Counted from the stretch's first letter, positions 2,836 to 29,027 are shown. The stretch: DNA of 64,000 bases from Parcubacteria group bacterium GW2011_GWC1_36_108 (GCA_000991245.1 LBRD01000008.1:1686-65685), one strand, 5' to 3'. The notes: generated by a model not told the origin, from the letters alone. Made by a program: numbers and translations.

Positions 2836-2892
2836 GGTAGAGACGCAAAATCTGTCAGGCATTGTAGAGACGCAAAATTTTGCGTCTCTACC
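2836..2892. repeat. REP/BIME-like element (copy 1) 3' of the RAYT gene
   Basis: ggtagagacgcaaaatctgtcaggcattgtagagacgcaaaattttgcgtctctacc. It is a 14-bp-arm palindrome (gtagagacgcaaaa/ttttgcgtctctac) preceded by a third direct copy of the arm. Confidence 0.8.
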
Positions 2893-2899
2893 GGGTTAT

Positions 2900-3502
2900 C
2901 TATATCCAAACATTTTCAATATTATTCCGGTCACGTTCCCACATTTCAGGGTTTGTTTGGATATATTCACGAATTTTATTCAATGACTCATCATTTCTGA
3001 TGACGTGATCGTAAAATCGAGGTTGCCAGGTAAAATTCAAATCGTTAATTGTTGCATATTTTTTAACACCAATTTTAAACCCACGAATAATGGATGCCAG
3101 ATTTTTTGATTGTGATCCAAATTTATTTTGTGGACACGGTAGAGACGCAAAATCTGTCAGGCATTGTAGAGACGCAAAATTTTGCGTCTCTACGCATTGT
3201 TGAATATTATTCCAATTTATTTCAATAACAACATGCACGTGATTTGGCATGACCACAAATTCAGATGCGTTCGCATGTGGAAAATGTTGTGGGATTTCTT
3301 GCAAACAATTTTCTGCGATTTTTCCAATCTCATTCAAAATCATTTTTCCATCGATAATTTCTCCAAAAAATTCTTCGCGGTTTTTTGTGCAGATCGTGAC
3401 GAAATACATTCCGTTTTGCGCGTAATCATAATTTTGCAAACGGGATGATTGGATGCGGTATTTGTTTTTGAATTTTTCCGGCATGGGTTTTTTGTCGGGC
3501 AC
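2900..3502 (-). CDS. rayT: IS200/IS605-family Y1 (HUH) transposase of the REP-associated RAYT type, carrying an in-frame REP insertion
   Basis: HUH motif MPNHVHVVIEI and a C-terminal catalytic-Tyr region WQPRFYDHVIRNDESLNKIREYIQTNP. The gene is flanked by REP palindromes. A 57-nt REP copy sits inside the ORF between the HUH and Tyr motifs and translates as VETQNFASLQCLTDFASLP. Confidence 0.8.
   Translation of the reverse strand: MPDKKPMPEKFKNKYRIQSSRLQNYDYAQNGMYFVTICTKNREEFFGEIIDGKMILNEIGKIAENCLQEIPQHFPHANASEFVVMPNHVHVVIEINWNNIQQCVETQNFASLQCLTDFASLPCPQNKFGSQSKNLASIIRGFKIGVKKYATINDLNFTWQPRFYDHVIRNDESLNKIREYIQTNPEMWERDRNNIENVWI
3138..3193. repeat. REP element (copy 2), a near-identical duplicate of copy 1, embedded in frame inside the RAYT coding sequence
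   Basis: ggtagagacgcaaaatctgtcaggcattgtagagacgcaaaattttgcgtctctacg is identical to 2836-2892 apart from the terminal base. Confidence 0.8.
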
Positions 3503-3532: not shown

Positions 3533-3540
3533 GGTTTGGT

Positions 3541-6500
3541 TTATTTTCTAATTGTTGTTGTGCCGGTTTCTCTGACTTCAACTTGTCCGAAATGATAAAG
3601 TTGCCCAATTTCATTGGCGGAAAGGGCGCGGTTGTAGATGCGGACATCGTCGATTTTACCATTAAATGTTCGATCTCCTGCAACATTATTTCCAATTGTC
3701 ATTGCTGTAGAACCTGAGCCAACTACCCCAGTCTTGGCTGCGCTAGCAACAGAAACTCCATCCAGATAAATTGAAACATTCGCTCCATCATACACGCAAT
3801 CAACATGATGCCAGCTATTGTATTTTCCAGAAAGCGGACTAGTTGTGCTTCCAACAGCTGTCACGCCAATATCACATTCAAGATTATTACCAACAAACAA
3901 AAAATTATATGAGCTGCCATTTCCTTTTTCAATAATACGACCAAAGCTAGTTCCTATTCCACTTGTTCTTGGATTTATCCAAGCGCTCAAAGTAAGTTGC
4001 GACATACCATCCAAATTATCTTTATCTGGAACTGTTACTACATTAGTCGCCACGCTAAAATCTGTTCCCTGTCCCAACTTCCCAATCGCTTTGGTTGCAC
4101 CGGAAATTGTGCCGTTATTATTATTTCCAGAAGTGTCTTTGGCAGTTGTGCCGGAAATATCTTTGCCGTCAAAGGTCCAATGCCCGACGAGACCAGCGTC
4201 AAGATTAGGCGATGAAATTTGAGATTGCTGCACAACTTCAGAAAATTCATCAGCGCCGATGTCCCAATCTCCAGCGCGACCTTGCCCGTCAATATCCTCG
4301 CCAAAATGCAAATACGAATCAGCTTGTAAATTTAAACCTGTTTTTCTAGCTACAGTATCAGAAACTGAAAGATGGAAATCCTTATTGGCAGCATCAACAA
4401 AAGCTACTGTGGTTGAATTTTTTGAGTTAGCGCCAGGAGCATCAGCAGCGAGGTCGGAGATGTTGTAATCAGACCCAGCTAAAAATGTACCCTTATACCC
4501 ATCCGTTGAACCTTGCACAATATTATTTTTTGCCACAATAGAGGATCCGGCTAAATCATAAATTCCAGCATTTGTTCCCCCATAAACAGTGTTATTGTAA
4601 GCATACAATGTTTTACCTGCACCATCATAATATCGACAAATTCCTGCACTTCCTCCATAAACAATATTATTATAAACATAAGCAGACTTGGGAGTCGTAC
4701 TTTGCCCATCAATTCTAATACCATAACTTGCCCCATAAGAAGATTTGATAATTGAATTTGAAATTTTTACAGCATTAGGCCCGCTTGAAACATACACGCC
4801 ATCATTACCTATATTAAATTGCAAGCCATCAGCCACAAGATACGATGAATTCAACTGGAAAGAACCGTTCACATCTATTCTAAATTTAGTATCGTCCCAT
4901 TTTCCCTGATGTCTTTGGTTTGTATTTGATTCTGTTGTTGTGCTGACTGGGGTATAAATCTTGATATAATTCGCAGGACTTGTTGTATATGCTGATATTA
5001 TTAAATTTGTATTATTCACACTACCATCGTTATAACAAGGTAGGTTTAATTGATAATTTCCTGTTACTAAATTTGAAGTGTTTAGATAATTCACGCCAGC
5101 CGCATAATTAATGCCATTTCCAATGGCGTAATTAATTAAATTGAAGGTGTGTGCAATTGAATTAACAGTTTGCCCAGTGACATTGGTGGGAGTTGCGCCT
5201 GTTGCGGTGATGAGTTTCCACTGCGATGTCGAAATTTTTTCTGAAATATACGCAACTGATGTTGTGTTGTATGTAACTTTATCACCCACTCCCATGTTCG
5301 TCGCAGTCTGCGCCTCGGAAAAAGTCGCAATGCCCGATGCGATAGTCACCGTTGGTGTGCCGGTTTTATGATCGGTAGTATTTTGCCCGACGGAATAATA
5401 AATTGCGGTTGCGGCTTCATCAGCGCCGATATCCCATATTGTACTTGAAGACGATGGGCGTGTTTGTCCATCGATATCATTGGTGAATGCAAGATTAATA
5501 TCCGCTGATAAGTCAGCGCCGGAATTTTTCGCAGCAGTGTCACTAGTGCTTAAGTGGAAATCTTTATTGGCAGGATCAGCAAAAGCGACGGTGGTGGAAT
5601 TTTTAGAATTGGCACCAGGTGCATCGGCGACAAGATCGGAAATATTATAGTTTGAAGATGGGTGAAAATTAGAACTAGTAAAACCATCGATACAATTTTG
5701 AGCAATATTATTCTTTAAAATAGTGTCCATGTACCCATTAGTATAATATCCGACAATTGCATCTTTGACCGTATTATTGTAAACAACAGCACGCAAAACA
5801 TCGCCACCTGCATTTCCACCAATACCTTTTTTAAAGCCGTAAATGATATTATTCCAAACTTTCAAATTAAAATTTCCGGCAGTCAAATTATATTGGATTC
5901 CAAATATATTTGTTCCACCGCTTCCAGCATACTGAAGTATATTGTTTGAAACATAAGAATTTTTATCCATGTCAATTCCAATTTGATCATAGCCAGATGT
6001 AGATGAGTTTTTTATTTGCAAACCATCAACATGTACGAATTGGTTGTTGATGTTAACATTATATGCACCCACACTTGAAACATTTAGGTTGTATTTTCCA
6101 TCATCCCATTTCCCCTGATGTCTTTGGCTTGCATTTGCTTCGGTTGTCGTGCTTATTGGAGTATAAATTCTGATATAGTTTGCTGGCGCAGTAGTATATC
6201 CTGAAACTGTCACTGCGGTAGTATCCGCAGCACTGTCGTAATAACAAGGAAAATTGAGCTGATAATTTCCAGTGACCAAACCGGTGGTATTCAAATGATT
6301 TACATCAACTGCACCTGTAACTGCAGCTGAAAGAGAAGTGTACTCGTGTTTTATTGAAACCACTGTTGAAGTCGTGATGTCTGCAGGAACTGCACCAGTT
6401 TTTGTAACTAAATTCCAAACTGAAGTGGAGGTTTTTGATGCAATATATGCAATGTCAGTTGTGTTATATGTCACCCTATCCCCAACTCCAATATTTCCAG

Positions 6501-9500
6501 TCTGAGCTGCTGAAAAAGTTGCAACTCCACTTGTAATTGTAATAGTTGGTGTGCCAATTTTAAGGTCAGCAACTGATTGCCCGACAGAATAATAGATTGG
6601 GGCTGCAGCTTCGTCGGCACCAATATCCCATATTGTGCTTGAAGATGATGGACGGGTTTGATTGTCGATGTCAGTCGTGAACAAATATGACGAATCTGAT
6701 GACAAATCTACACCAAAATTGCGTGCAGCAGTGTCGGTAGGAGAAAGATGAAAGTCTTTATTAGCAGCATCTGCAAAAGCGACGGTAGTGGAATTTTTGG
6801 AATTAGCTCCTGGAGCATCAGCAGCGAGATCTGAAATATTATAATCAGAAGTAACATTAAATGTTCCCAAAAAACCATCGCCACAATTTTGAGTAATGTT
6901 GTTTTTTAATACAGCTTGACCAATAGTAGAATGTCGAAATCCAACACTTGCTATCAAACGCAATGTATTATTGTATGCATATGAATTAACACCAGACCAA
7001 CTGTCCAGATTCATACCATTATTAACGTTATTGATTATATTATTAGAAATATATGCTCCTCCTGCAGTTGAGCCATTTGCTGAAATACCTGTGCCATTGT
7101 TAGATGGGAACTCGTCATGGATATAATTACTATCAATGGTAATATATTTTATTCCTGGAAAATACAAAGCGGATGAGGCAAACCCTGGATTTCCAAAATC
7201 AGTAATCTCCAAACCGACAAGTTTTACATATGGAATATTTAAAGCAATCGCATTTCCATTGGTTGAAGGATTAATAAGATAATTAACTCCCGTCGCTTTC
7301 CCTTGATGCCTTTGACTCACATTAACTTCAGTAGTTGTGTTATTTGGGGTATATATTTTTATATAATTTGCAGGACCAGTCGTATATCCATCAACCGTCA
7401 CTACTGTTGTGTCTGCGCCAGAATCATAATAGCAAGGGAAATTAAGTTGATAATTTCCCGCTACCAAATCTGCAGTATTTAAGTGAGTAGCATCAACAGC
7501 ACCAGCTTCTGCAGCGGAAAGTGAGGCGTAGGCGTGAGCGATTGAAGTTACATCTGCATCAGTGACAGCGGTCGGAGCAGCGCCTATTGCGCTTTGACAA
7601 CCCCAGACTGTGGTTGAGGTTTTGTTTGTAATATAGCAAGCTCCACCAGTGTATGTTACCAAATCTCCAACGCCCATATTTGTTGCAGTTTGCGCGACTG
7701 AGAAAGTTGCAGTTCTGGCGGTTGCATCAACTGTAACAGTGCCCGCTCCAGTTTCATGTGAGGTTGTGTTTTGTCCGACGGAATAGAAAATTGCGGTTGC
7801 GGCTTCGTCAGCTCCAATATCCCAAGCATTTATAGTTACATTTCGAGTTTGACCATCTATGTCAGTGTTGAAGGTAAAATTAGAATCCGCTGATAAGTCG
7901 CTACCAGAGTTCTTCGCTGATGTGTCACTAGGACTTAAGTGAAAATCTTTATTAACAGCGTCGGCGAAGGTAACGGTTTGATTTATTTTTGCATTAGCGC
8001 CTAGTGCTGATGCATCTTTAGAAAGATTTTTATTTGAAAGACTTGAATAATTAATCGCTGCGCTTCCGTTTGTACAATAATCATATGAACCATTATTATA
8101 TGACAAATTATTAATAGCAACAATGTCATAATAAGATGACTCGCTAATGCCACAATTACTATTGCCATACAAAGTATTATTATAAACAAATGCGCTATTA
8201 TCAAAATAATTACCAATACCTATACCTTTAGACCAACCATACACAATATTATTGTAAATATAAACTTGCGAACTCGATAAAACATTATTTTCTACTATTA
8301 TGCCACTTTCACTACTAGCACCACCAGTATATTTAATAATATTATTTGAAATATCGACCCCTTTATTAGTACCTCCTACAGAAATACCATCAAACCAAGA
8401 ATTATTACCTGTTTGATCAAGTTGTAATCCAGAAATGTATACGTAATTTATATTTGCCAATATTAAATCCATGCTACCACTACGCAAAACATATCTCCCA
8501 TCATCCCATTTCCCTGAATGTCTTTGCGAATTATTCGCTTCAGTTGTAGTGTTGTTTGGTGTATAAATTTTAATATTATTTGATGGCGAAGTTATGTACC
8601 CAGAAACAGTTACCGTAGTTGTATCCGCACCAGAATCATAATAACAAGGAAAATTAAGCTGATAATTTCCAGCAACCAAATCTGTAGTATTTAAATGGGT
8701 GGCATCAACAGCGCCAGCTTCGGCAGCTGAAAGTGAAGAGTACGCGTGTGTGATTGAAACTACAGTTGAATCGGTTATATTAGCAGGAATTCCTCCTGTA
8801 GCGGTTACTAAATTCCAAACAGAAGTAGAAGTTTTTGAGGAGATATATGCAACATCGGTTGTGTTATATGTGACTTTGTCGCCCACTCCCATATTTGTGG
8901 CAGTTTGAGCCACAGAAAAAGTTGCAACTCCAGATGCAATAGTCACGGTTGGCGAACCAGTTTTATGATCATTTGTGTTTTGTCCGACAGAATAATAGAT
9001 TGCAGTGGCAGCCTGATCCGCACCAATGTCGTAGAGACGTCCATTTATGGCGTCTCGCCCCTGTCCATCTATATCAGTCGTGACCGGAAGATTAGCATCC
9101 GCACTCAAATCCGCGCCAGCATTTTTGGCAGCAGTGTCATTTGGAGAAAGGTGGAAGTCTTTATTGGCAGCGTCGGCGAAGGACACAATCGTCTCAATTT
9201 GATCTTGCGCACCGCCTGTATTTGAAGAATCATCAGAAATATTATAGTTAGAAGCAGAATCAAAACTACTAGCGTACGCACTACCTCCTGTGTTTTGCAC
9301 AATGCAATTTTTAATAAGCGGACTATATCCTTCAGTATATATTCCATTTTCAGAGCCGCCAGAACCATAAACGGTATTATTATAAAATACGTTTTGGACA
9401 CTTCCTCCGAATCTTAATGCAACAACCCTGCTTGCTGAGGAACCGTAAAAAATAGAATTCTTTACGCTAGAACCATCTGTACCATATAACTGAATAGCGT

Positions 9501-12495: not shown

Positions 12496-12561
12496 TAGTA
12501 GAAAAATTTTAAATTTTAAGTTTTAAATTTTAATTGAAATTATAATTTCCAAATAAACAAA

Positions 12562-12918
12562 TTACTTTTTATCAATTGTTATAATAATTTTAGAAAATAT
12601 TAAAGTTAATTCTTGTGCTTCTTTCCAAAATTTCAAGCATTTTTCTTTTTCATCAGGATTACTTTTAGCAATGAGTTGAAGCCAGTATTTTGTTTCTCTG
12701 GCTTCTTTTTTACAAATAGCTATTTTATTTTTGAAATCCTTTTGAGAACAAGCTCCATTTGCTTCAAAATAATTAGCCCCGATACTAGTTGCTGAACGAA
12801 TTAGTTGGCTAATTAATGGCATATTTATCATATCTTTCTTTATTGTTTTGAGAAAAACTATCATATCTTCACTAAATTCTGTTGTTCTTTTTTCTAAATC
12901 GTAATTTGATTTTGTCAT
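12562..12918 (-). CDS. Four-helix-bundle protein (TIGR02436 / 23S-rRNA-intervening-sequence protein family; Avd-like)
   Basis: 118 aa containing QLIRSATSIGANYFEANGACSQKDFKNKIAICKKEARETKYWLQLI, which is the family signature. Confidence 0.75.
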   Translation of the reverse strand: MTKSNYDLEKRTTEFSEDMIVFLKTIKKDMINMPLISQLIRSATSIGANYFEANGACSQKDFKNKIAICKKEARETKYWLQLIAKSNPDEKEKCLKFWKEAQELTLIFSKIIITIDKK

Positions 12919-12963
12919 TTTTAATTTAGATTTGATTTAAAATTTAAAACTTAAAATTTAAAA

Positions 12964-13488
12964 TTATTTCTGCACCAGCACATCATCCTCAAAAACCTTA
13001 TCGGTAACAACTTTTCCCCTTGTTTCGTCGGATGCAATTCCAATTTTGGCAAGATCAACAGCAAATTTTCGGCGTTTGATTTCTTTAGGGTTTTGCTGCT
13101 CTTGCTCGTTGGCAAAAACTCCGGCTTTTTCTTTGAGCGATAATTCCAAAAGTTGTTGTTGCTCTTCGGTTAGTCTCATTTTGATAATTAAAAAGCCTTC
13201 TTGTTCGGCAGTTGAAAATTCCTTGTTTTCATCAGCCGTAAAAAGCACATCACCTCTTTGTAAGGTTCCTTCGACACCACCAGTGTCATAAATCTGAATC
13301 AAAAGCTGCACGGTTTTCTTTTCACCACTTTTAGCTGCTTCTTTAATGCTCATTTTTTCAATTGCCGGAGTTTGCTTGTACCATTTTACGGTTTTATAAA
13401 TTCCAAAAGAGAGGGCGAAAACAATCAAAACTATTCCAATCACAAAAACAGCAAATCTTTTTTTGTTTTCGATTTGGATTTTTTTCAT
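12964..13488 (-). CDS. Hypothetical membrane-anchored protein (N-terminal TM segment, extracytoplasmic domain)
   Basis: 174-aa ORF. The N-terminus KKRFAVFVIGIVLIVFALSFGIY is a single TM anchor; no recognisable catalytic motifs. Confidence 0.5.
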   Translation of the reverse strand: MKKIQIENKKRFAVFVIGIVLIVFALSFGIYKTVKWYKQTPAIEKMSIKEAAKSGEKKTVQLLIQIYDTGGVEGTLQRGDVLFTADENKEFSTAEQEGFLIIKMRLTEEQQQLLELSLKEKAGVFANEQEQQNPKEIKRRKFAVDLAKIGIASDETRGKVVTDKVFEDDVLVQK

Positions 13489-13535
13489 ATCTTTATTTGA
13501 AAATGTTTATTGATTCAATTATAGCACATTTAACG

Positions 13536-13655
13536 CTTTGGGTGGTTGGAGTGAAATCCTTTCACGCTTGGGGTGGTTGGGGTGTTTAGGGGTGGCATCG
13601 TTAATACTTGGGGTGGTTGGGGTGGCATTGTTAAAGCTTTGGGTGGTTGGGGATG
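13536..13655. repeat. Array of four G-rich units (TTGGGGTGGTTGGGGTG-like) directly 3' of the 217-aa four-helix-bundle gene, with G-quadruplex potential
   Basis: ctttgggtggttggagtg…gcttggggtggttggggtgtttaggggtgg…ttggggtggttggggtgg…ctttgggtggttggggatgttaggg. It is complementary to the C-rich array at 14241-14310. Confidence 0.7.
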
Positions 13656-14219: not shown

Positions 14220-14240
14220 TTTGTTTGCATTTAAATTGAA

Positions 14241-20300: not shown

Positions 20301-20493
20301 TGGCTGCGTGTGCCTGTGAGGAAAACGCGAAAAAACCGATAGCGAAAAATGCCGCCGCCAAGAAAAATCGAACACCCGTAGAGACGCGATTAATCGCGTC
20401 TCTACCATGCGCGTCTCTATCACGATTTTTTGAAAAATATTTTGTTATTTTTACCAATCGCTCATGAGCGAAAGGTTTTGATTTTAGATTCAT
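14324..20493 (-). pseudogene. Giant surface-protein paralog split into two overlapping ORFs (896-aa N-terminal part 17914-20604 and 1197-aa C-terminal part 14324-17917) by a frameshifting intragenic deletion; either a pseudogene or an assembly collapse in repeats
   Basis: The N-terminal ORF has a signal peptide (…GVRFFLAAAFFAIGFFAFSSQAHA|ATAIYYS) and the same module types as 3541-12495. It stops at …AIYYSVGQSVAEKHQLQFGIL*. The next ORF restarts 4 nt earlier, mid-module (MTKTGAVPADITTSTVV…), and carries three C-terminal LamG-like domains. At the junction about 140 nt of an otherwise conserved module are missing. Confidence 0.6.
20378..20424. repeat. REP palindrome (identical 28-mer to 3505-3532) plus a partial extra arm, lying in frame in the 5' region of the giant paralog
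   Basis: gtagagacgcgattaatcgcgtctctac-catgcgcgtctctatcacg, translated in the ORF as …NRDRDAHGRDAINRVSTG…. Confidence 0.75.
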
Positions 20494-20551
20494 TTTTTCA
20501 TGCTTAAGTTTCTTAAGACACTTAAGGTTCTTACTAAGATTCTTATGTTTC

Positions 20552-21115
20552 TTAATATCCCCTGTATTCCCGTCTTTTTCTGTGCAACTCCTCTGAAAGA
20601 CCACCTTCTTTTTGATGCTTCAATTTCAACGCCTCAACTTGGCGATGGAGAAGCAATGTTGCTTGATGGCAAAGCGTCAGCAGAAAATTTGCAGCTTCTT
20701 CACTTTGCTCTGGTAGTTCAATTGTTTTCAGGAGCTCTTCGGTTTCATACTCCTTGTTTAAGACGCTTAAGTTACTTAGGTTTCTTACGAGTGTCGCGCT
20801 TCGCGCTCGCAGTGCGAGTACTCGCGAGTCATTTTTGTCCCATTTAGAAAGTTTTCTCTGACGCAAAAAATCTTCCAGATCACCAGTCAATTCTTCCAAG
20901 GACCCCTTGGCGATGCCCGTGAGGTTGATGGCCACTTTTAGAGAAACATCCATGTCATCCGAGCCTTCCACGATGTTTTGTTTTCCACTTCTGGCTGCAC
21001 CATCCATTTGCTCTTTCAGTTTCCAACTTTTTATCCATTTTTCAGCAAACTCAACCTCTCGGTCATAGATGATGACCGAAAACCAATAGGTATAAAGTTT
21101 TTTGTATGGTTGCAT
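20552..21115 (-). CDS. Four-helix-bundle protein paralog (Avd-like/TIGR02436 core plus C-terminal extension)
   Basis: QMDGAARSGKQNIVEG…GIAKGSLEELTGDLEDFLRQRKL, and a C-terminus matching the 13656-14219 product. Confidence 0.6.
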   Translation of the reverse strand: MQPYKKLYTYWFSVIIYDREVEFAEKWIKSWKLKEQMDGAARSGKQNIVEGSDDMDVSLKVAINLTGIAKGSLEELTGDLEDFLRQRKLSKWDKNDSRVLALRARSATLVRNLSNLSVLNKEYETEELLKTIELPEQSEEAANFLLTLCHQATLLLHRQVEALKLKHQKEGGLSEELHRKRREYRGY

Positions 21116-21155
21116 AAGTTTTTTAAGATTCTTGGATTACCTAAGTTTCTTCATG

Positions 21156-24100
21156 TCACAATTTTTCCTCCATAATTATCCAGTCAAAAGAAACGTCTTC
21201 AGTGACAAGATTCTTTACACTAACAGTAAATCCTTCTCCGAATTTTACTTCGGTGACGGCGATTCCTTGATCAAGGGCTACTTTTGGTGTGATGAAAACT
21301 TTTGAAGAAATATTTGCAGCTTTTGTTTTGACAAAGAAAGTTTTTCCATCGCTCTTTGTGTCATCATCTTTGCCGTCGCCATCCAAATCTTTCTTAATTA
21401 AAGTTATTGATGCATCACCGATTGTGCGAGCTTCTGGGTCTAAGACAGATACGATTAATTTGCCCGTTTCCAAACTTTTGACAGTTAATTTTCCAGCAAT
21501 TGCAATGTCGCCAATATCCTCACCCTGCCCAACACCAAGCAGCATTTTTATCAGTGCAATATCTTGAGTGTTTAAATCAATTTGAGCGATGTTTAATTCA
21601 GAATTTGCCTTGATCTGAAGCTCGGTCATTTGATCTTGTAATGTTTCAGCTAAACTCGTTAGGGAGTTTAGGGAATTTAAGATATTTAAATTGTCATTCT
21701 GAACTTGTTTCAGAATCTGATCAGTGTTTGCCAACTGCGCATCAAGACTTGTTTTTGCAACTGCAACTAATTGATTCACCTGATCTTGAATGTTCATACT
21801 AGCAATGTTTAACGTCACAGCTTCTTCAACTTTTTCCACAGTCAAACTTTGATTTCTGCGTGAAATCAAAACTTGAATTGTTCCTTTTTCTCCAGCAAAT
21901 GATTGAATCGCAACACCAACAGTTGATTCGCCCGCATTAGCTTTTCGCAAATATCCGGCAGACTCTGCAGCTGTCAAATTGTCTCCGATTTGAATTACGC
22001 CATTTTCAGTGGAAACTTTTCCAGGAACCTGTCCGAGCATACCGATTATTTTGTAATTTGGATCATTATCGCGCTCGGTTCCATTTCCATTTCCAACAAT
22101 AGACGGATTTGAAGAAACAATACCCATCACATTATTATCGCCAGAACGTGTGCAGCGTTCAACTGAATTTGCGTTAGTTACATCAACACAAACAACTTCT
22201 CCAGACTGAAGATCAATATCTTTAGTATAAAAATATTCCGCATAATCAGCGCCGTTTGTTAGATAACCGTTTTTAGAATTAATTTTAGAAGAAGCGTGCT
22301 GGACATCCAAAATGTATCCCGGAGTTGTTGTGCCGATACCAACACCAAGCGCATTCATTCCACCTGCACCATCAGAAGTTCCATATAATGTTAACATCGC
22401 GTTTCCATCAAGACTTGCTGTGTAGCTATTAACCACGCCAACAGTTGAAGCAGTTGTTACTGCCATATCAATCCAGCTTATTATTCCAGAATCTGCAGAA
22501 AATTCCTGCGTTCCGATAGAAAGACTTCCGATGCTTGTCACGCCACTTGTATCGATTGAGAATTGACTCGTGCCTGCAATTCCATTGCCTGCAAAAATTT
22601 TGAATTTGTTTGAATCAGTCACATCAACTCCCATTGAGAATTGTTGAGCGCCCGCGCCAAGTCGGAAATAGTTATTTGTGTTATCCCAATAAAGGTTGGC
22701 GTTATTTTGGTCATAAATTCCACTTGCGCCTGCAAAAACTAACGAACCTTGAGTGAATTGAGTGGTTGAACCTGTGCCACCATGAGTCACATCGATTGCG
22801 GTTCCGTTCCAAACTCCAGTTGTTATTGTGCCAAGCGTTGTGATTGAACTTGCGCCAGTCCATGTTCCACCAGCAATTGCAGCCAACTCTGCATTATATC
22901 CTTGGACATTTGTTCCGATTGCAAGTCCAAGATTTGTCCTAGCTGTTGCCGCATCAGTCGCGCCAGTTCCACCATTAGCAACAGCAACCGTACCGGAAAG
23001 ATAGGCAGTTGCATCCCAGCTCCAAACTCCGGCAGTGTTTTTCAGTAAACCGTTTGTTGAAGCTGTTGGTAAAGTATATGTTATATCAGCTGCCTGATCT
23101 CCACCTTGCAAATATGAATAGTATGTTGGAGTTGTGCCTGTTTCAATCAAACCAAGTTTTGCTCCCATTTTTACTGCTAAATTAGAAGTGTTACCGTCAC
23201 CACTGGAAGTTCCATAAATCGTCAGCATTACATTTCCATCAAGCATCGCTCCATAACTTTCAACCGTTCCGTTTGTTGCAGCTGACGTTACAGGCATATC
23301 AGTCCATGAAATTGCTCCTGAATTTTCAGCAAATGATTGCGCGCCAAGTTGAAGACTTGCAATGTTCGTCACTCCATTTGTATCTATCGTAAACTGACCA
23401 GTTCCCGCAATTCCACTTCCAGTTGCAATCTTAAATTTGCTTGAATCAGTCGCATCAACACCCATTGAAAATTGTTGAGCGCCCGCGCCAAGTCGGAAAT
23501 AGTTATTTGTATTATCCCAATAAAGGTTGGCATTATTTTGATCATAAATTCCAGAAGCTCCCGCAAAAATTAATGAGCCTTGAGTAAATTGAGTCAATGT
23601 TCCAGAACCACCACTAGTAACCGGTAAAATTCCAGTAACATTTGTTGAAGCTAAATTGATTGCATTAGCAGTTATTTCCTGACCACTTAATGACAAATAA
23701 TTTTCTCCTGCTATGGTTGCAGAGCTGTGAATTGCTGTACTACTCCAGGTCGGAACTCCAGCGACCAAGGTTAAAACTTGCCCATCCGAACCACGAGTAA
23801 TTTTTCCAAGTGTTGAGGTAGTATCCGCATACAACATATCGCCAATAGAATAAGATGCATAACCAGTTCCACCATATTGCGCACCAAGAGCAGTAGAAAG
23901 TGTCAATGAATTGAATGCCACATCTGATGTTGTGTTGATTGTTTGTGGAAGTGAAATCGTAACTGCACCATTTGCAGCTGAAACAGCAACTTGATTAGCA
24001 GTTCCAGCCAAACTTGTCACTCCAGAGTTAGCAATTGAAATTGAACCAGCTCCATTAGTGATAGAAATTCCAGTGCTGGCGGTTAATGTTGCCAAATCAT

Positions 24101-27100
24101 ATCCTGCTCCATTTCCAATTAACAATGTTCCACTAGCTGCACTTGCACCATTAACACCCGTGCCACCATATTGAGCACCAATTGCACTTCCTTGCCAAGC
24201 ACCAGCCACGACCTGACCGGAAGCATTAACTTGAAAAGCATCGTTTGTTCCAACTGTGAAAAGTGAAGCGGGGGTGTTATCACCAATACCAAAATTTCCT
24301 TGATTAACAACTGTGTATCTACTTGATTGAAAAAGTATATCACTTCCAGATCCAGTTAATAATCTTACGCCACTTCCAGCTAAGGTATTACCAATACTTA
24401 ATTGACTACCTGTTTTAAATATACTGCCATTCACATTTATATTTCCATCGACTTCAAGAGCTTCATTAAGGGTTGCAGTTCCAATCCCCAACCTCTTGGC
24501 TATATTATCCCAAAATAAATTACTATTATCTTCAGAATAAATTCCACTAGCTCCAGCAAAAACCAAAGAGCCAGGCGTGAATGCTCCTGCTCCTGTGCCT
24601 CCATTGGCAACTGGTAAAATTCCAGAAACATTAGACGAAGCTAGGTTAATAGCGCCTGCGGTAATTTGTTGATCAATAATAGAAAGATAATTTTCACCGG
24701 CAAGTGTCACCTGGTCATGCACTGAAGCTGATGTTATATAACCAGAGTCATTCGTCCACATTGAAATATTTCCAGACTTGTTAGTCAAGGTATCAGTGCT
24801 TGAAGCGGTAATATACCCCGCGCTAGCATGATCTCCCCAACCATAAGCAGAATTCCAGTTGGTTATATTGGTGCCAGTAATTCCATTTGCAGCAGAAGCA
24901 ACAAAGATTGGATCGGTTTCAGAAAAACTAGTTAAATAACCCTCACTAGCATGATCTCCCCAACCATAAGCAGTGTTCCAATTGGATGAAGATGATATAT
25001 ATGTGTCATTTATTGCAGTACCTTGCCAAATACCAGCAATGACTTGACCGGAAGTGTTAACTTGAAAAAGATCATTGTTTCCGACTGTAAGCATTGATGC
25101 TGGCGAACTATCACCAATTCCCACATTACCAGTATCTGCATCTATCACCATTAATTCATTTGCTCCAGCTGCTTGCAAATCGCCACCCCTATTAAATGTA
25201 AACTTAGTAAGTTGATGTCCAAAAAATTGATAATTAAATGCGTCTGGTGTTCCAATTCCCATTTTCATAGTTGGAAGAGTGCCATAGATATTAACAGCTG
25301 CTCCTCCGGTATAATTTCCAAAGGATAATTTTGCTCCTGGAGTAATCGTTCCAATTCCCAATCTCTTGTTTGTATTGTCCCAAAATAAATTATCATTATC
25401 TTCAGAATAAATTCCACTTGCTCCTGCGAAAACTAAAGAGCCAGCCGTGAATGTTCCTGCTCCAGTACCTCCTCTTGAAACATTCAAATATTGTTCATTG
25501 CCAAGTGTATTTGTGCCTGTCCAATATGTTACATATCCATTAACGCCTGTGCCTGTGATTCCGCCAACCCCAGAAACCGTTGAACATTGCCAGTCTTTTC
25601 CTGTATTATCCCAAGCTAAAACCTCATTGTTTGCACAACCCTGCAACAATGACAGTTGATTATTCAAAGCGCCGGAAAATTGCATTCCAGAAAAAGATGA
25701 GGTGCTAGCAGTTCCACCATTTGCAGAAAGAAGTGCAATTGAAAGCGTGCCGGTTTCTGTAATTGGTCCTCCTGTAAGACCATTGCCAGAGGCAACATTT
25801 GTTACTGTTCCAATTCCACCACTTCCACCTTCTACTGTTCCCCAATACAAATTACTACTTGCATCAATTTTTAAAACCTGCCCGGATGATCCCGCTGCTG
25901 TTGGAAGTGTGTATGCAATGTCACCAGCTTGTGTTCCACTATTTTGAAAAGCAGTTTTATATGTTCCTGATTTTATATTAAGCGCACCATCAATTGTTGT
26001 TCCTGCGAATGTTGGAGAACTTGTTGTCTGTAAGTTTTGATTTATTGAAACATTTGCTCCGGAAATAGTAAGTGTTCTCGAACTGGTTCCTCCGGCAATT
26101 GTAAATCCATCAGCCGCGGAGGCAAGTGTCAGGCCGTTAACAGTTGAAGGCGTAATACTTCCGAGTGTCAGTGTGATAGCTGGAGTTGTTGTTGCATTTG
26201 CAACTGTTCCGGAAATTCCGTTGGCAGTTGTTACTGAAACTGTTGTGACCGTTCCATTTCCATTGGCAACAATATTTCCATTCAATTTCTGAATAGCCTG
26301 TAAAATTGAATCCGTAGCAGCAATTGTGCCAGCGCCTGACACATAATTTGTGAGTAATTTTCCAGTGACTGCGATGTCAGTGAATGATGCGCTTGGAAGT
26401 GCGTTGGTTGCTAGTGTTCCTTGAGCGCTAGTTGCATACGCTGTTGATGCCGTGAATGCTGCCGTTCCTAGAAGTCCTGTGACTGAATTTAGATTTGCAA
26501 CTGTAGCTGTCATTCCTGTTAGGTTCGTAGCGGTAGCAGCATTTCCGGTTGTGTTTTGATTTAGAGTTGGAACATCGGCTACTGCAATTGCTCTCATGGT
26601 TGGCATTCCTGCTGATCCGTTTGGAGCAGCCCAGAAAAAGTTTGCGGTGCTTGATGAAAATGCTGGAGCGTATGATGAAGCTGCTGTATAAGCGGCAGTT
26701 CCGAGTGTTCCACCTGTTGTAACCGTAAGAGTTTGACCAGCTGCAATGTTTAAAGTGTTTGTTCCGTTGGCTGTAACAGTAAGACCATTGTATGTTTTTC
26801 CGGTAAGCGCTGAAGCAATTTTATTGTCCGCTATCGCAGTTGCATTCCAAGTTCCAGTTGCAATTGTTCCAAGCGTTGTGATATTTGTTGAACCTGCCCA
26901 AGTTGAAAGCGCAATATCTTCAACACTTCCAAGTCCAATATCACTTTTCGTAAGAGTTACCCAAACAAGGTCTGCGCCTGCACCATTTGATTTCAAAAGT
27001 TGTCCAGAAGTACCAGGTCCAAGTAGTGACCAAGTTGGAGATACTCCTTGACCAGCAATTATCGCTCCACGAGTTACAGCAGCAGCAGTCGTATCAGAAT

Positions 27101-29027
27101 GTGAAGTTGAAAGAAATGGATGAGCGCTTCCAGCAACTGATCCCCAGGTTGGAACTCCACCAACGATTGTTAGTGCTTGACCATTAGCTCCGATTGCACG
27201 ACGCGAAAAAGTATTGCCACTGGAATAATACAATATATCACCAGCACTGTATGTTGAAAGTCCGGTGCCACCATTAGCAATTGTCAGTGGCGAAGTAAGA
27301 GAAAGAGAAGCAAAAGTAGCATCAGCCGTGGTTGAAATATTTTGCGGAAGAGAAATAGTAATAACACCAGTATTAGCTGAGGCGGTTATTTGATTTGCTG
27401 TTCCATTAAGCTGCGTTACTCCCGTATTTGCAATACTAATTGTTCCAGGCCCATTAGTAACAGAAATTCCAGTGCTACCACTCAATGTTGCCAAAGAATA
27501 ATTTGTTCCATTTCCGATTAATAATTGTCCACTGGCAGGCGCAGTAGAAAGTCCAGTTCCACCTTTTGCAATTCCCAAAATAGCAAGTTCCGTTAAAGTG
27601 TTTCCTGCTCCCCAAACTGCCAAATTATTTTGTGTTCCACTTCCCGTCACACCTCCTGCGCCCAAAACTGAAACCCAACTTGGCAAATGAGTAATCGGAT
27701 CAATCATTAAAACTTTACTATCAGCACCAACATTAGAAAGCTTGCTAAGCGTGTTTGCTGCACTGGAATAAAGCAGGTCTCCAGCAGCATAAGTATTTAT
27801 CCCAGTTCCGCCACGCACAGCGCTGATTGTGCCACCATTCCAAACACTGGCAGCGTTTGCAAAATTCCAAGCGCCAGTTATAACTTCATTTTGATTTTTT
27901 CTTGTAATACCAGAATTAGCATAATCAATTCCTATTGTTGCGATATTGCTAGCCAAACTAAAAGTAAAATCGCTAGTTCCATTAAATGCCAGGGTGTTAA
28001 AATTGATTTCCTCAATTGCTTCCTCGCCGTTTACTTTGATGACAGCCATTGATGCCCCAACAAAATTAGAGCATTTCCAAACCTTAGCACCATTGTCCCA
28101 ACTTAAAACCTGACTATTGGCACATCCTTGAAGCAATGTTAGTTGATCTGAAGAATCTCCCGCAAATTCAAGCCCTGAAAATGATTGGGTTGTTGCTGTT
28201 GTTCCATTTGCAGCGTTCAAAATATCAGCTATTCCTAAATTTGAAAAATTAACACCATTATTCGAATACTGCCAACTTCCCAAAGCTCCATTAAATCTAA
28301 TCGTAGGTTTGTTCAGAGCATTTCCAACTGCCAAATCAAAATTATTTCCAGCAAGTTCACCACCTGAACCAATATTAAAAACTAGATTTGTGCTGCCAGT
28401 ATCAGTGTTTTGCAAATGAATATCATCAATATTGCTAAAACGTGAATCGTTACCTAAAACCAATTGATTGCTGCCAGTTCCCGTTGGCAACATCTTGATG
28501 TCTATTTTACCTTTTGCTCCAAGTTGCGGGATATTACCTTCACTTGTTCCCAAGGTTGCACCGCCAAGAGCAGCTGAATCCATAGCAAGAGCAACTGAAC
28601 TCATTTTTTTGCGAGGAACAAATTCACTATCGGAGTTCATTCTGATTCCAAGATAATATTCGTTGTTAGAAAAATTCAAATCAGCAGGAAGAGGAACAAC
28701 TGCACCAAGATATGCACTCAAAACTCCATCGCGAATATAAATTTTCTGTGTCTCTTGCCAAGCTCTTTGAGAAGCGTCGCTATCAGATGGATATGGATCG
28801 GTGCTACTTCGATCAGTTCGATACAAAGCAAAACGAATTTCATATTCTCCATTTTGCAAAGATTCATTTTTTTCATTAGAAACAAAAGCTGAAATATTTA
28901 TTTGTGGTGCAATCTGAGCGCGAGAAAATTTAAAACCAAATGCAAGCAATGCAAAAGCAAAAAAAGATATTAGCGCTATTGAAATTTTATTTTTATTATT
29001 ACTCATTATCAGAAAAATAATACCCAC
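21156..29027 (-). CDS. Giant surface protein (2623 aa) with an N-terminal signal/TM, repeated GGTG-motif fibre-like repeats (similar to phage tail-fibre repeats), and a C-terminal coiled-coil plus beta-rich domain
   Basis: N-terminus MSNNKNKISIALISFFAFALLAFGFKFSRAQ. Repeats contain LPVANGGTGAGAFTPGSLVFAGASGIYSEDNSNLFWDN, ANGGTGLSTY and VAVANGGTGATDAATARTNLGLA. Long near-identical internal DNA repeats occur, e.g. ~22580-22760 versus ~23420-23600. The C-terminus has ~150 aa of heptad-rich coiled coil. Confidence 0.8.
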   Translation of the reverse strand: MGIIFLIMSNNKNKISIALISFFAFALLAFGFKFSRAQIAPQINISAFVSNEKNESLQNGEYEIRFALYRTDRSSTDPYPSDSDASQRAWQETQKIYIRDGVLSAYLGAVVPLPADLNFSNNEYYLGIRMNSDSEFVPRKKMSSVALAMDSAALGGATLGTSEGNIPQLGAKGKIDIKMLPTGTGSNQLVLGNDSRFSNIDDIHLQNTDTGSTNLVFNIGSGGELAGNNFDLAVGNALNKPTIRFNGALGSWQYSNNGVNFSNLGIADILNAANGTTATTQSFSGLEFAGDSSDQLTLLQGCANSQVLSWDNGAKVWKCSNFVGASMAVIKVNGEEAIEEINFNTLAFNGTSDFTFSLASNIATIGIDYANSGITRKNQNEVITGAWNFANAASVWNGGTISAVRGGTGINTYAAGDLLYSSAANTLSKLSNVGADSKVLMIDPITHLPSWVSVLGAGGVTGSGTQNNLAVWGAGNTLTELAILGIAKGGTGLSTAPASGQLLIGNGTNYSLATLSGSTGISVTNGPGTISIANTGVTQLNGTANQITASANTGVITISLPQNISTTADATFASLSLTSPLTIANGGTGLSTYSAGDILYYSSGNTFSRRAIGANGQALTIVGGVPTWGSVAGSAHPFLSTSHSDTTAAAVTRGAIIAGQGVSPTWSLLGPGTSGQLLKSNGAGADLVWVTLTKSDIGLGSVEDIALSTWAGSTNITTLGTIATGTWNATAIADNKIASALTGKTYNGLTVTANGTNTLNIAAGQTLTVTTGGTLGTAAYTAASSYAPAFSSSTANFFWAAPNGSAGMPTMRAIAVADVPTLNQNTTGNAATATNLTGMTATVANLNSVTGLLGTAAFTASTAYATSAQGTLATNALPSASFTDIAVTGKLLTNYVSGAGTIAATDSILQAIQKLNGNIVANGNGTVTTVSVTTANGISGTVANATTTPAITLTLGSITPSTVNGLTLASAADGFTIAGGTSSRTLTISGANVSINQNLQTTSSPTFAGTTIDGALNIKSGTYKTAFQNSGTQAGDIAYTLPTAAGSSGQVLKIDASSNLYWGTVEGGSGGIGTVTNVASGNGLTGGPITETGTLSIALLSANGGTASTSSFSGMQFSGALNNQLSLLQGCANNEVLAWDNTGKDWQCSTVSGVGGITGTGVNGYVTYWTGTNTLGNEQYLNVSRGGTGAGTFTAGSLVFAGASGIYSEDNDNLFWDNTNKRLGIGTITPGAKLSFGNYTGGAAVNIYGTLPTMKMGIGTPDAFNYQFFGHQLTKFTFNRGGDLQAAGANELMVIDADTGNVGIGDSSPASMLTVGNNDLFQVNTSGQVIAGIWQGTAINDTYISSSSNWNTAYGWGDHASEGYLTSFSETDPIFVASAANGITGTNITNWNSAYGWGDHASAGYITASSTDTLTNKSGNISMWTNDSGYITSASVHDQVTLAGENYLSIIDQQITAGAINLASSNVSGILPVANGGTGAGAFTPGSLVFAGASGIYSEDNSNLFWDNIAKRLGIGTATLNEALEVDGNINVNGSIFKTGSQLSIGNTLAGSGVRLLTGSGSDILFQSSRYTVVNQGNFGIGDNTPASLFTVGTNDAFQVNASGQVVAGAWQGSAIGAQYGGTGVNGASAASGTLLIGNGAGYDLATLTASTGISITNGAGSISIANSGVTSLAGTANQVAVSAANGAVTISLPQTINTTSDVAFNSLTLSTALGAQYGGTGYASYSIGDMLYADTTSTLGKITRGSDGQVLTLVAGVPTWSSTAIHSSATIAGENYLSLSGQEITANAINLASTNVTGILPVTSGGSGTLTQFTQGSLIFAGASGIYDQNNANLYWDNTNNYFRLGAGAQQFSMGVDATDSSKFKIATGSGIAGTGQFTIDTNGVTNIASLQLGAQSFAENSGAISWTDMPVTSAATNGTVESYGAMLDGNVMLTIYGTSSGDGNTSNLAVKMGAKLGLIETGTTPTYYSYLQGGDQAADITYTLPTASTNGLLKNTAGVWSWDATAYLSGTVAVANGGTGATDAATARTNLGLAIGTNVQGYNAELAAIAGGTWTGASSITTLGTITTGVWNGTAIDVTHGGTGSTTQFTQGSLVFAGASGIYDQNNANLYWDNTNNYFRLGAGAQQFSMGVDVTDSNKFKIFAGNGIAGTSQFSIDTSGVTSIGSLSIGTQEFSADSGIISWIDMAVTTASTVGVVNSYTASLDGNAMLTLYGTSDGAGGMNALGVGIGTTTPGYILDVQHASSKINSKNGYLTNGADYAEYFYTKDIDLQSGEVVCVDVTNANSVERCTRSGDNNVMGIVSSNPSIVGNGNGTERDNDPNYKIIGMLGQVPGKVSTENGVIQIGDNLTAAESAGYLRKANAGESTVGVAIQSFAGEKGTIQVLISRRNQSLTVEKVEEAVTLNIASMNIQDQVNQLVAVAKTSLDAQLANTDQILKQVQNDNLNILNSLNSLTSLAETLQDQMTELQIKANSELNIAQIDLNTQDIALIKMLLGVGQGEDIGDIAIAGKLTVKSLETGKLIVSVLDPEARTIGDASITLIKKDLDGDGKDDDTKSDGKTFFVKTKAANISSKVFITPKVALDQGIAVTEVKFGEGFTVSVKNLVTEDVSFDWIIMEEKL

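What the first reader, a model, noticed from the sequence alone, without database searches (positions are those of the whole stretch)
2836..29027. Island of paralogous giant adhesin-like genes interleaved with Avd-like four-helix-bundle proteins and a RAYT/REP module
All genes in this island lie on one strand, in this order along the transcript direction: giant 2623-aa protein, four-helix-bundle protein (187 aa), fragmented giant paralog, four-helix-bundle protein (217 aa), membrane protein, four-helix-bundle protein (118 aa), giant 2984-aa protein, then the REP-flanked RAYT transposase.

The small proteins carry the TIGR02436 / 23S-rRNA-IVS-protein signature (Q..RAA.S..N.AEG…GS..EL). To my knowledge this is the same family as the DGR accessory protein Avd.

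The giant genes share kilobase-scale, near-identical DNA modules and LamG lectin-like C-termini, which are common scaffolds for hypervariable ligand-binding proteins.

This repeated pairing of a huge modular surface protein with an Avd-like protein, next to a REP/RAYT, looks like an organised surface-variation locus rather than a chance neighbourhood. It does not match a described system: no reverse transcriptase or TR/VR pair is present.
Basis: partly seen in the sequence, partly recalled or inferred. Interest (0 to 1): 0.75.

Follow-up and report, generated by a model that had tools for sequence, protein, structure and literature searches.

The report
Hairpin-bounded small genes between giant genes
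[quoted passage not shown] The pairing recurs in related bacteria, but nothing shows it is a diversity-generating system.

Summary
The gene layout is real, with corrections. The small proteins are 118, 187 and 187 aa, not 217. All pass TIGR02436, and two carry the TIGR04258 "suffix" domain. Only two giants are paralogues with LamG ends. Their modules are 60-83% identical, not near-identical.

The small proteins are not Avd in the strict sense. Pfam has a separate bAvd family (PF22296). A relative's canonical DGR, next to the orthologous small gene, uses its own PF22296 protein. The window has no reverse transcriptase and no TR/VR pair. Ten assemblies are 99.7-100% identical, differing only by repeat indels and one recombination junction.

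Each small gene is a discrete cassette bounded by its own short-period arrays, built like protein-coding 23S rRNA intervening sequences. An ORF-less copy of one hairpin lies 46 kb away. Nine of nine short relatives have such inverted flanks.

The linkage to giant genes is real. In 80 loci from other genomes, a LamG protein sits directly upstream in 12/75 cases versus 3/717 at other positions. The same cassettes also sit in tRNA-synthetase, cas, restriction-modification and ATP-synthase operons.

Best reading: operon-embedded IVS-type cassettes in a recombining surface-protein island, plus an independent REP/RAYT. The cause of the LamG bias is unknown.

The parts
21156..29027 (-). Giant 2623-aa secreted or anchored protein. 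It is rich in G/T/A/S and has an N-terminal hydrophobic anchor. It is unrelated to the other two giants and has no LamG domain.
   Evidence: Orthologues are present in L019, L011 and L052.
20552..21115 (-). Four-helix-bundle + suffix gene of 187 aa (TIGR02436 + TIGR04258), here called cassette W187.
   Evidence: The AF2 model has pLDDT 91.5, and its best PDB folds are 2GSC and 2RLD. The family has 3903 relatives.
20503..20556 (-). 3' array of CTTAAG-NNN 9-nt units. It starts at the stop codon of W187 and runs to the ATG of the middle giant.
   Evidence: All 8 CTTAAG-array matches in the 64-kb window lie at this cassette.
20757..20789 (-). In-gene (linker) CTTAAG array, which encodes VRNLSNLSVLN.
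21113..21155 (-). Degenerate CTTAAG-type array in the 40-nt spacer between the stop of the 2623-aa giant and the ATG of W187.
20378..20405 (.). REP palindrome, lying in frame in the N-terminal region of the middle giant.
14324..20495 (-). Middle giant, with beta-helix modules and two C-terminal LamG domains. It reads as two ORFs in the window (896 + 1197 aa) but is intact at 2166 aa in other assemblies.
13656..14219 (-).
14240..14310 (-). 5' G-rich array (TTGGGG-type), complementary to the 3' array of W217.
13828..13880 (-). In-gene (linker) array with both orientations of CCCTAAACA. It forms a hairpin and encodes FRVVWVSLNTLNTPS.
   Evidence: (D17).
13530..13661 (-). 3' C-rich array of about 31-nt units built from CCCCAACCA-type 9-mers. 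One unit (13649-13683) is absent in assembly L004.
12964..13488 (-). 174-aa protein with a single N-terminal membrane helix and no family match. It is 91% conserved in L019.
12562..12918 (-). Four-helix-bundle gene of 118 aa (TIGR02436 / PF05635), here called cassette W118.
   Evidence: phmmer finds PDB 2RLD at E = 1.5e-13.
12923..12968 (.). Left (5') inverted arm of W118, made of AAATTTT-type 7-nt units.
   Evidence: I1: 46 nt, 87% complementary. The stem closes the whole cassette in both the MFE and the centroid fold, z = -3.66.
12502..12547 (.). Right (3') inverted arm of W118. It ends 6 nt before the ATG of the 2984-aa giant (12495).
3541..12495 (-). Giant 2984-aa secreted protein with a signal peptide, about 400-aa beta-helix modules and a C-terminal LamG domain.
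2900..3502 (-). RAYT (IS200-like Y1 transposase) with a REP palindrome inside its ORF (3166-3193).
2837..2891 (.). REP unit downstream of the RAYT. A second REP at 3504-3531 lies upstream of it.
59141..59255 (+). ORF-less copy of the W118 hairpin. Both arms are shared and the loop is about 38 nt. It lies between two plus-strand genes.

Best explanation
The region is a strain-variable surface-protein island of a Candidatus Moranbacteria (CPR) genome. Its giant genes vary by recombination and indels among roughly 1.2-kb repeat modules (shown).

Three small genes of the 23S-rRNA-IVS-protein family (TIGR02436 / PF05635) are wedged into the junctions between the giants. Two are of the TIGR04258 'suffix' subtype. 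No promoter or terminator is detectable around them. Each is bounded by its own short-period (7-9 nt) repeat arrays, which are inverted or palindromic and can pair to bracket the ORF (shown). This is the architecture of protein-coding intervening sequences of 23S rRNA: a terminal inverted-repeat stem plus tandem heptamers before the ATG.

I infer that these are IVS-type selfish or operon-embedded cassettes. They would ride on host transcription, and their boundary stems would probably be cut by RNase III, uncoupling them from the host transcript. An ORF-less copy of one hairpin elsewhere in the window shows that the element is dispersed.

The cassettes are not DGR Avd genes and the island is not a DGR. 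The REP/RAYT is an independent selfish element.

The strong bias of suffix-type cassettes to sit just after LamG or other large surface-protein genes is real. I attribute it, tentatively, to an insertion or retention bias at the 3' ends of long, dispensable, strongly transcribed genes that recombine among paralogues.
For: **Family and fold**
- Family membership.
- Fold.

**Cassette boundaries**
- W118: 46-nt arms, 87% complementary, closing the cassette in both the MFE and centroid folds, z = -3.66.
- W217: G-rich 5' and C-rich 3' arrays pair in both the MFE and centroid folds.
- Each array type occurs in the 64-kb window only at its own cassette.
- W118 arms recur as an ORF-less hairpin at 59141-59255.

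**Generality**
- 9 of 9 short-type relatives have flanking inverted arrays above the control 95th percentile, and 7 of 9 are above the 99th. The arm sequence differs at each locus.
- Suffix-type genes: 10-mers from the linker are 8x enriched in the +-200-nt flanks.
- CTTAAG arrays occur at 4.5 per kb at cassettes versus 0.04 per kb elsewhere.

**Known parallel**
- The Coxiella IVS has a 28-bp terminal inverted-repeat stem, is excised by RNase III, and has copy-number-variable heptamers before the S23p ATG (PMC4990558).

**Promiscuous contexts**
- TP_methylase then MetRS, IleRS, Cas7 then Cas4, HsdS, an Eco57I-like gene, and the ATP synthase operon (cas loci in PMC3936711).
- An 82-nt duplication of the hsdS 3' end flanks the cassette in L072.
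- Disrupted copies in L015 and L019.
- The flanking gene is co-oriented in 84% (upstream) and 77% (downstream) of loci.
- No promoter or terminator signal.

**Not a DGR**
-.

**Variation by recombination**
-.
Against: - G:U versus A:C mismatches in the inverted arms are 16 versus 15. So there is no signature of selection on the sense RNA; the repeats may act as DNA.
- For W187 the flank-to-flank pairing is weak. Only 14-24% of suffix-type loci exceed the control for any one flank or linker comparison.
- No mobility enzyme or target-site duplication was identified.
- A conserved synteny (TP_methylase, cassette, MetRS) in several Moranbacteria points to stable inheritance.
- The suffix protein is intact and 55-72% identical across CPR phyla. 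It therefore has a selected function that this model does not name.
- The 45-fold LamG bias is not explained by the model, only accommodated.
- Perfect CTTAAG arrays in metagenomes are mostly ordinary minisatellites without a 4HB gene (11 of 120 loci).
Confidence: 0.5

Rival explanations
1. Dedicated partnership: the suffix-type four-helix-bundle proteins are accessory factors of giant LamG or other surface-protein genes. They might, for example, be RNA-binding factors needed to express or process very long transcripts, and are co-transcribed with them.
For: - A LamG protein sits directly upstream in 12/75 loci versus 3/717 at positions +-2 to +-8 (odds ratio 45, p = 8e-11).
- Upstream neighbours of at least 1000 aa occur in 11/73 versus 14/711 loci.
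- The pairing is seen in Moranbacteria, WWE3, Woesebacteria, CPR3 and other Patescibacteria.
- The spacer after the LamG stop codon is 36-87 nt in most pairs; two are longer.
- The protein is intact and highly conserved.
- PEGA, DUF2341 and FG-GAP surface proteins are also upstream neighbours, and sortase is a downstream one.
Against: - Most family members sit in unrelated operons: tRNA synthetases, cas, restriction-modification and atp.
- The 2623-aa giant upstream of W187 has no LamG.
- Copies next to giants are disrupted in L019.
- The loci are not phylogenetically independent, so the p-values overstate significance.
Confidence: 0.25
2. Degenerate or trans-acting DGR: the small proteins are Avd-like accessory factors left over from, or serving, a diversity-generating retroelement whose reverse transcriptase lies elsewhere. 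The LamG ends would be its targets.
For: - In L011 and L022 (Moranbacteria, small protein 90% identical) a complete DGR lies immediately upstream of the orthologous small gene. It is followed by a LamG giant.
- The fold is related to Avd according to the literature (PMC10053308).
Against: - That DGR has its own PF22296 Avd (135 aa). It also has its own 218-aa Lcl_C-type target with a TR/VR pair in which 11 of 13 mismatches fall at TR adenines.
- The window proteins do not hit PF22296.
- No RT in 64 kb.
- No A-biased repeat pair.
- LamG ends are identical across ten assemblies.
- The one divergent strain shows a recombination junction, not a VR.
Confidence: 0.05
3. Incidental neighbourhood: giant genes, small four-helix-bundle genes and REP/RAYT are simply common in CPR genomes and happen to lie together.
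For: - Contexts of the small genes are very diverse.
- A RAYT is present in only 2 of the 80 related loci.
- Island gene order differs in the close relative L019.
Against: Position-specific enrichment of LamG and of very large genes is seen exactly at -1 and +1. It is not seen at +-2 to +-8 in the same loci.
Confidence: 0.1

Closest known systems
Protein-coding intervening sequences (IVS) of 23S rRNA (Coxiella, Leptospira, Brucella; S23p / PF05635 ORF)
   Same: - Same protein family.
- The ORF sits in the loop of a long stem made by terminal inverted repeats.
- Short tandem repeats lie just before the ATG, and their copy number varies between strains (PMC4990558; window).
- ORF-less versions exist.
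   Different: - These cassettes lie between protein-coding genes, not in helix 25 or 45 of rRNA.
- Two of the three carry the extra TIGR04258 suffix domain and a third copy of the array inside the gene.
- RNase III cleavage has not been shown here.
Diversity-generating retroelements (RT + TR/VR + Avd)
   Same: - A small four-helix-bundle protein is encoded just after a large surface-protein gene.
- A true DGR sits at the equivalent place in the relatives L011 and L022.
   Different: - The window has no RT and no TR/VR.
- The proteins fall in PF05635, not PF22296.
- LamG rather than C-type-lectin targets.
- No hypervariation.
REP / RAYT pairs
   Same: - A gene is flanked by the same short structured repeats that also occur alone in intergenic spacers of operons.
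- A bona fide REP/RAYT is present at 2837-3531.
   Different: - The four-helix-bundle protein has no HUH/Y1 motifs and no known catalytic activity.
- The repeats are arrays of 7-9-nt units rather than single GTAG-headed palindromes.
23S_rRNA_IVP genes embedded in CRISPR-cas loci (Zhang et al. 2014, PMC3936711)
   Same: The same family is found inside unrelated operons, on the same strand. Here it occurs as Cas7, cassette, Cas4 in 3-4 loci.
   Different: That report did not describe boundary repeats or a bias towards giant LamG genes.

Membership tests
TIGR02436 / PF05635 four-helix-bundle (23S rRNA IVS protein) family | Profile match above the curated cut-off | tested here: met
   TIGR02436 scores are 80.0, 32.8 and 24.6 bits against a cut-off of 24. 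For PF05635 only the 118-aa protein is above the cut-off of 33.8 bits: it scores 60.4. The other two score 32.5-33.0 and 24.1.
TIGR02436 / PF05635 four-helix-bundle (23S rRNA IVS protein) family | Four-helix-bundle fold like PDB 2GSC / 2RLD | tested here: met
   W118 finds 2RLD by sequence at E = 1.5e-13. The W187 model (pLDDT 91.5) has 2GSC and 2RLD as its best folds. Target-normalised TM-scores are 0.62-0.70 for most chains, probability is about 1.0, and the E-values are modest at 0.03-0.1.
TIGR04258 four-helix-bundle suffix domain proteins | C-terminal suffix domain above the cut-off | tested here: met
   57.0 and 41.6 bits against a cut-off of 40 for the two 187-aa proteins. The domain is absent from the 118-aa protein.
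rRNA-type intervening sequence element | ORF enclosed by terminal inverted repeats that form a long stem | tested here: met
   Met for W118 (46 nt, 87% complementary; stem present in the MFE and centroid folds, z = -3.66) and for W217. Weak for W187. Nine of nine short relatives show it.
rRNA-type intervening sequence element | Located in a 23S (or 16S) rRNA helix | tested here: not met
   All three cassettes lie between protein-coding genes.
rRNA-type intervening sequence element | Excision from the host transcript by RNase III | not testable with these tools
   This needs RNA end-mapping. The G:U versus A:C count (16 versus 15) gives no RNA-level support.
Diversity-generating retroelement | DGR-type reverse transcriptase in the locus | tested here: not met
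   tblastn with the L011 DGR RT gives only one E = 1e-3 hit in a frame full of stop codons.
Diversity-generating retroelement | TR/VR repeat pair with adenine-specific mismatches | tested here: not met
   No such pair was found among 158 repeat pairs in the window. The positive control in L011 has 11 of 13 mismatches at TR adenines.
Diversity-generating retroelement | Accessory protein of the bAvd family (PF22296) | tested here: not met
   The window proteins hit only PF05635 at E <= 0.01. The L011 accessory protein hits PF22296 at 48.4 bits against a cut-off of 40.
Diversity-generating retroelement | Hypervariable target C-terminus in the population | tested here: not met
   Ten assemblies from different samples are 99.7-100% identical over the LamG ends. 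These are consensus sequences only; read-level data were not available.
REP / RAYT | Y1 (IS200-like) transposase | tested here: met
   PF01797 scores 29.5 bits against a cut-off of 23. NF047646 scores 58.5 bits, below its cut-off of 80. The HUH motif 'NHVHVV' is visible in the translation.
REP / RAYT | Gene flanked by REP palindromes that also occur elsewhere | tested here: met
   Palindromes lie at 2864, 3166 (inside the ORF), 3504 and 20378, against 0 expected by chance.
Miniature inverted-repeat / non-autonomous transposable element | Multiple dispersed copies with shared terminal inverted repeats | tested here: inconclusive
   There are two copies of the W118-type arms in 64 kb, one with and one without the ORF. 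Target-site duplications could not be judged in AT-rich flanks, and no transposase was identified.

The most novel reading that the evidence does not exclude
Four-helix-bundle 'IVS protein' genes and their private 7-9-nt arrays would form a widespread, undescribed class of repeat-plus-gene elements, analogous to REP/RAYT. In this reading:
- The protein recognises its own arrays, as DNA or RNA.
- The arrays sit at both gene ends and, in the suffix subtype, also inside the gene.
- The arrays also occur alone in operon spacers and in rRNA.
- In CPR bacteria the elements have a specific relationship with the 3' ends of giant LamG surface-protein genes.
Probability: 0.25. Interest if true: 0.75.

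Novelty: new variant of a known kind. Interest (0 to 1): 0.5.

Why it matters
- **Function of the family.** The function of the PF05635/TIGR02436 family has been unknown since rRNA intervening sequences were described. If the IVS architecture (repeat-bounded ORF, ORF-less derivatives) is general outside rRNA, rRNA IVSs become one special case of a broader element.
- **A tractable pointer.** The co-varying arrays, and the strong bias to sit behind giant LamG genes in CPR bacteria, point to what the protein may bind.
- **A practical caution.** A PF05635 gene next to a large surface protein should not be read as evidence of a DGR.

Tried and rejected
- **RNA duplex energy between flanks** (RNA.duplexfold): no discrimination, about -37 kcal/mol in both the observed flanks and the controls. 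I dropped it in favour of local-alignment scores.
- **Sense-RNA signature in the inverted arms:** G:U 16 versus A:C 15, so no signal.
- **Reverse test for CTTAAG arrays.** A metagenome-wide scan for three perfect CTTAAG-NNN units mostly returned ordinary minisatellites. Only 11 of 120 loci had a 4HB-suffix gene at the array, so the arrays alone are not diagnostic.
- **Empty-site comparison for W118 in L019.** The gene after the 174-aa protein differs there, so no clean empty site could be defined.
- **RT at the window's right end:** a tblastn hit at 63626-63745 lies in a frame full of stops and is spurious.
- **A VR-like cluster.** The 26 mismatches between L005 and the window at 14975-15085 are the edge of a recombination junction with a different LamG paralogue.
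- **PADLOC defence models:** no hit for any small protein.
- **PDB sequence search for the suffix family and the 2623-aa giant:** nothing useful.


Full report
**Layout**

All genes between 2.8 and 29 kb are on the minus strand. Their order is:
- a 2623-aa giant (29027..21156);
- a 187-aa small gene (21115..20552);
- a giant read as two ORFs (20604..17914 and 17917..14324);
- a second small gene;
- a 174-aa membrane protein (13488..12964);
- a 118-aa small gene (12918..12562);
- a 2984-aa giant (12495..3541);
- a RAYT (3502..2900).

gyrB lies just upstream at 32390..30309. The source is a Candidatus Moranbacteria population from Rifle groundwater. The 118-aa protein is found on 21 contigs from several samples, and close homologues carry Moranbacteria names.

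**The small proteins**

- All three pass TIGR02436, with 80.0, 32.8 and 24.6 bits against a cut-off of 24. The two longer ones also carry the TIGR04258 suffix domain.
- Only the 118-aa protein passes the Pfam PF05635 cut-off.
The alignment with relatives and the calls in other assemblies put the start at the ATG at 14219, giving 187 aa.
- The 118-aa protein matches PDB 2RLD at E = 1.5e-13.
- An AlphaFold model of the 187-aa protein (pLDDT 91.5) finds 2GSC and 2RLD, the S23/IVS-protein structures, as its best folds.
- Pfam now separates true DGR accessory proteins as PF22296 (bAvd-like), and none of the window proteins hits it. 'Same family as Avd' therefore holds only at the level of fold or superfamily (PMC10053308).

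**The giants**

- The 2984-aa protein has a signal peptide, beta-helix matches and a C-terminal LamG_3 domain (100.9 bits).
- The middle giant ends in two LamG_3 domains.
- These two are paralogues with 47-54% aa identity. They are built from roughly 400-aa modules whose DNA copies are 60-83% identical at about 1.2-kb spacing.
- The 2623-aa protein is unrelated to them. It has no Pfam or PDB match and no LamG.
- The 'fragmentation' of the middle giant is an indel. Other assemblies carry about 120 bp more at 17945-17951 and read an intact 2166-aa protein.

**Is it a DGR?**

In the window, no.
- tblastn with a DGR reverse transcriptase finds nothing in an open frame.
- None of the 158 repeat pairs in the window has adenine-biased mismatches.
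- Ten assemblies from different samples are 99.7-100% identical across the island. They differ only by indels at repeats (20224; 17945-17951; 15012/14974; 13683/13649).
- One strain variant (L005) diverges upstream of 15085. The alignment shows a recombination junction with another LamG paralogue, not a variable repeat.

Variation in this island therefore comes from recombination among modules.

**A real DGR in relatives**

In two Moranbacteria relatives (L011, L022), the orthologous small protein is 90% identical. There it lies directly after a complete DGR and before a LamG giant. That DGR consists of:
- a 218-aa Lcl_C-type target with its VR at 7886-8022;
- a TR at 8241-8377, with 11 of 13 mismatches at TR adenines;
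- a 135-aa PF22296 Avd;
- a 361-aa RT with the IGNYSSQ motif.

The DGR brings its own Avd and its own target, so the neighbouring four-helix-bundle/suffix gene is not its accessory gene.

**What the small genes are: repeat-bounded cassettes**

*The 118-aa gene.* It is enclosed by 46-nt inverted arms (12923-12968 and 12502-12547, 87% complementary) made of AAATTTT-type units. The stem closes the whole cassette in both the MFE and centroid RNA folds (z = -3.66).

*The gene at 14219..13656.* It has a G-rich array upstream and a complementary C-rich array of about 31-nt units downstream. A third copy lies inside the gene, in both orientations.

*The gene at 21115..20552.* It has CTTAAG-NNN 9-mers in its 5' spacer, inside the gene (encoding VRNLSNLSVLN), and from its stop codon to the ATG of the next giant.

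*Specificity and a solo copy.* In the 64-kb window the CTTAAG and CCCCAAC arrays occur only at their own cassette. The arms of the 118-aa cassette recur once more, at 59141-59255, as a hairpin with a roughly 38-nt loop and no ORF.

*No transcription signals.* No promoter-like or terminator-like signal above chance separates the cassettes from the giants.

**Generality of the cassette architecture**

*Short-type relatives.* Nine short-type relatives had evaluable flanks, in the window and in 80 loci from other genomes. All nine have inverted flanking arrays above the 95th percentile of control genes, and seven are above the 99th. The arm sequence differs at each locus.

*Suffix-type relatives.*
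- 10-mers from the in-gene linker are eight-fold enriched within 200 nt of the gene (4.48 versus 0.55 per kb; 27 of 78 loci).
- In the CTTAAG subfamily, arrays run at 4.5 per kb at cassettes versus 0.04 per kb elsewhere.
- Different subfamilies use different units, and flank and linker co-vary. Examples are GTCGGAC-type units coding SDxSD, TATAAG-type coding KSYMTY, TAGGTCC-type, and GGGAAATTA-type.
- The 3' array often starts at the stop codon and abuts the ATG of the next gene.

*Match to a known element.* This matches the described Coxiella IVS. That element has a 28-bp terminal inverted-repeat stem cut by RNase III, and tandem heptamers before the S23p ATG that vary in number between strains (PMC4990558). 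In the window, the 3' array at 13649-13683 likewise varies by one unit between assemblies.

*Caveats.*
- Mismatches in the arms show no G:U excess (16 versus 15), so an RNA-level role is inferred, not shown.
- Perfect CTTAAG arrays in metagenomes are mostly plain minisatellites.
- Solo arrays also sit before atpH and atpA in L014.

**Is the link to giant genes real?**

Yes.
- Among the 80 loci retrieved with the suffix-type protein alone, a LamG-containing protein is the immediate upstream gene in 10 of 75. It is upstream in 2 more behind a spurious small ORF.
- A LamG protein is the immediate downstream gene in 5 of 76.
- At positions +-2 to +-8 it occurs in only 3 of about 717 genes (odds ratio 45, p = 8e-11).
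- Upstream genes of at least 1000 aa are also enriched (11/73 versus 14/711).
- The pairs come from Moranbacteria, WWE3, Woesebacteria, CPR3 and other Patescibacteria. The spacer after the LamG stop is 36-87 nt in most pairs; two are longer.

The loci are not phylogenetically independent, so the p-values are upper bounds on significance.

The same family also sits:
- between a TP_methylase gene and metG (4 loci);
- after IleRS and other tRNA synthetases;
- between cas7 and cas4;
- after hsdS, with an 82-nt duplication of the hsdS 3' end flanking the cassette in L072;
- after an Eco57I-like gene;
- at the head of an ATP synthase operon.

PF05635 genes inside cas loci were reported before (PMC3936711). 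Disrupted copies occur in L015 and L019.

**Reading**

The evidence fits cassettes that live inside other genes' transcription units, built like rRNA intervening sequences, with a strong but unexplained preference for the 3' side of large LamG surface-protein genes in CPR bacteria. What is shown is the architecture, the dispersal (a solo hairpin), the diversity of contexts and the enrichment. What is inferred is co-transcription, RNase III processing, and an insertion or retention bias as the cause of the LamG link.

A dedicated functional partnership remains possible (0.25). A DGR reading is very unlikely (0.05).

**REP/RAYT**

The RAYT passes PF01797. It is flanked by the palindrome GTAGAGACGC-N8-GCGTCTCTAC, which occurs four times in the window. 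A RAYT homologue appears in only 2 of the 80 related loci. I therefore treat it as an independent element.

Noticed in passing
window 59141-59255 (+): An ORF-less hairpin shares both arms with the 118-aa cassette at 12502-12968. It lies between two plus-strand genes and is followed by a TTGACA-N17-AATATT promoter-like site.
   Followed up: partly
window 3139-3193; L019 about 16560-16590; L041 about 17190-17220: A REP palindrome lies inside the RAYT coding sequence at the same position, just after the HUH motif, in three homologues. Its loop sequence matches the REPs flanking the same gene (AAAATTTT, ATTGCAAT, CCCGCCGGG), so internal and flanking REPs evolve in concert.
   Followed up: partly
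window 20378-20405: A REP palindrome sits in frame in the N-terminal region of the middle giant (…DAHGRDAINRVSTG…). It lies between a conserved MNxLKxKP start and the signal-peptide core. The paralogous 2984-aa giant lacks this roughly 35-aa insert.
   Followed up: no
L011 7364-9916 (and L022): A complete canonical DGR: 218-aa Lcl_C target, VR 7886-8022, TR 8241-8377, PF22296 Avd and RT. It lies between the orthologue of the 2623-aa giant and the orthologous four-helix-bundle/suffix gene, and is absent from the window.
   Followed up: yes
L072 about 9880-10700: The four-helix-bundle/suffix gene is inserted at the 3' end of a type I hsdS gene. The ATGA stop/start overlaps, and an 82-nt direct duplication of the hsdS C-terminal coding sequence lies on both sides of the cassette.
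   Followed up: partly
L014 8085-8130 and 8509-8550: Solo CTTAAG-NNN arrays fill the spacers immediately before the start codons of atpH and atpA. This is about 2-3 kb downstream of a four-helix-bundle/suffix gene in the same operon.
   Followed up: partly
window 14975-15085 versus L005 2282-2400: A strain variant carries a different LamG paralogue upstream of this point and identical sequence downstream. This is a recombination junction inside the middle giant. Assembly L004 has a 37-bp deletion at 14974-15012.
   Followed up: yes
L019 18853-18925: In a close relative, the 174-aa membrane-protein gene is followed by a CGCTGAT-type short-period array, then a different gene. There is no four-helix-bundle gene.
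   Followed up: no
L074 about 9830-10000; L069 about 9880-10000: In Verrucomicrobia and Victivallales members, the upstream GTCGGAC-type array is in frame with the gene. It would be translated as an N-terminal SDxSD repeat matching the repeat in the linker.
   Followed up: no
L030 and L042 (WWE3): Here the cassettes are flanked by GTAG-headed GC-rich palindromes, which are REP-like, instead of CTTAAG arrays.
   Followed up: no
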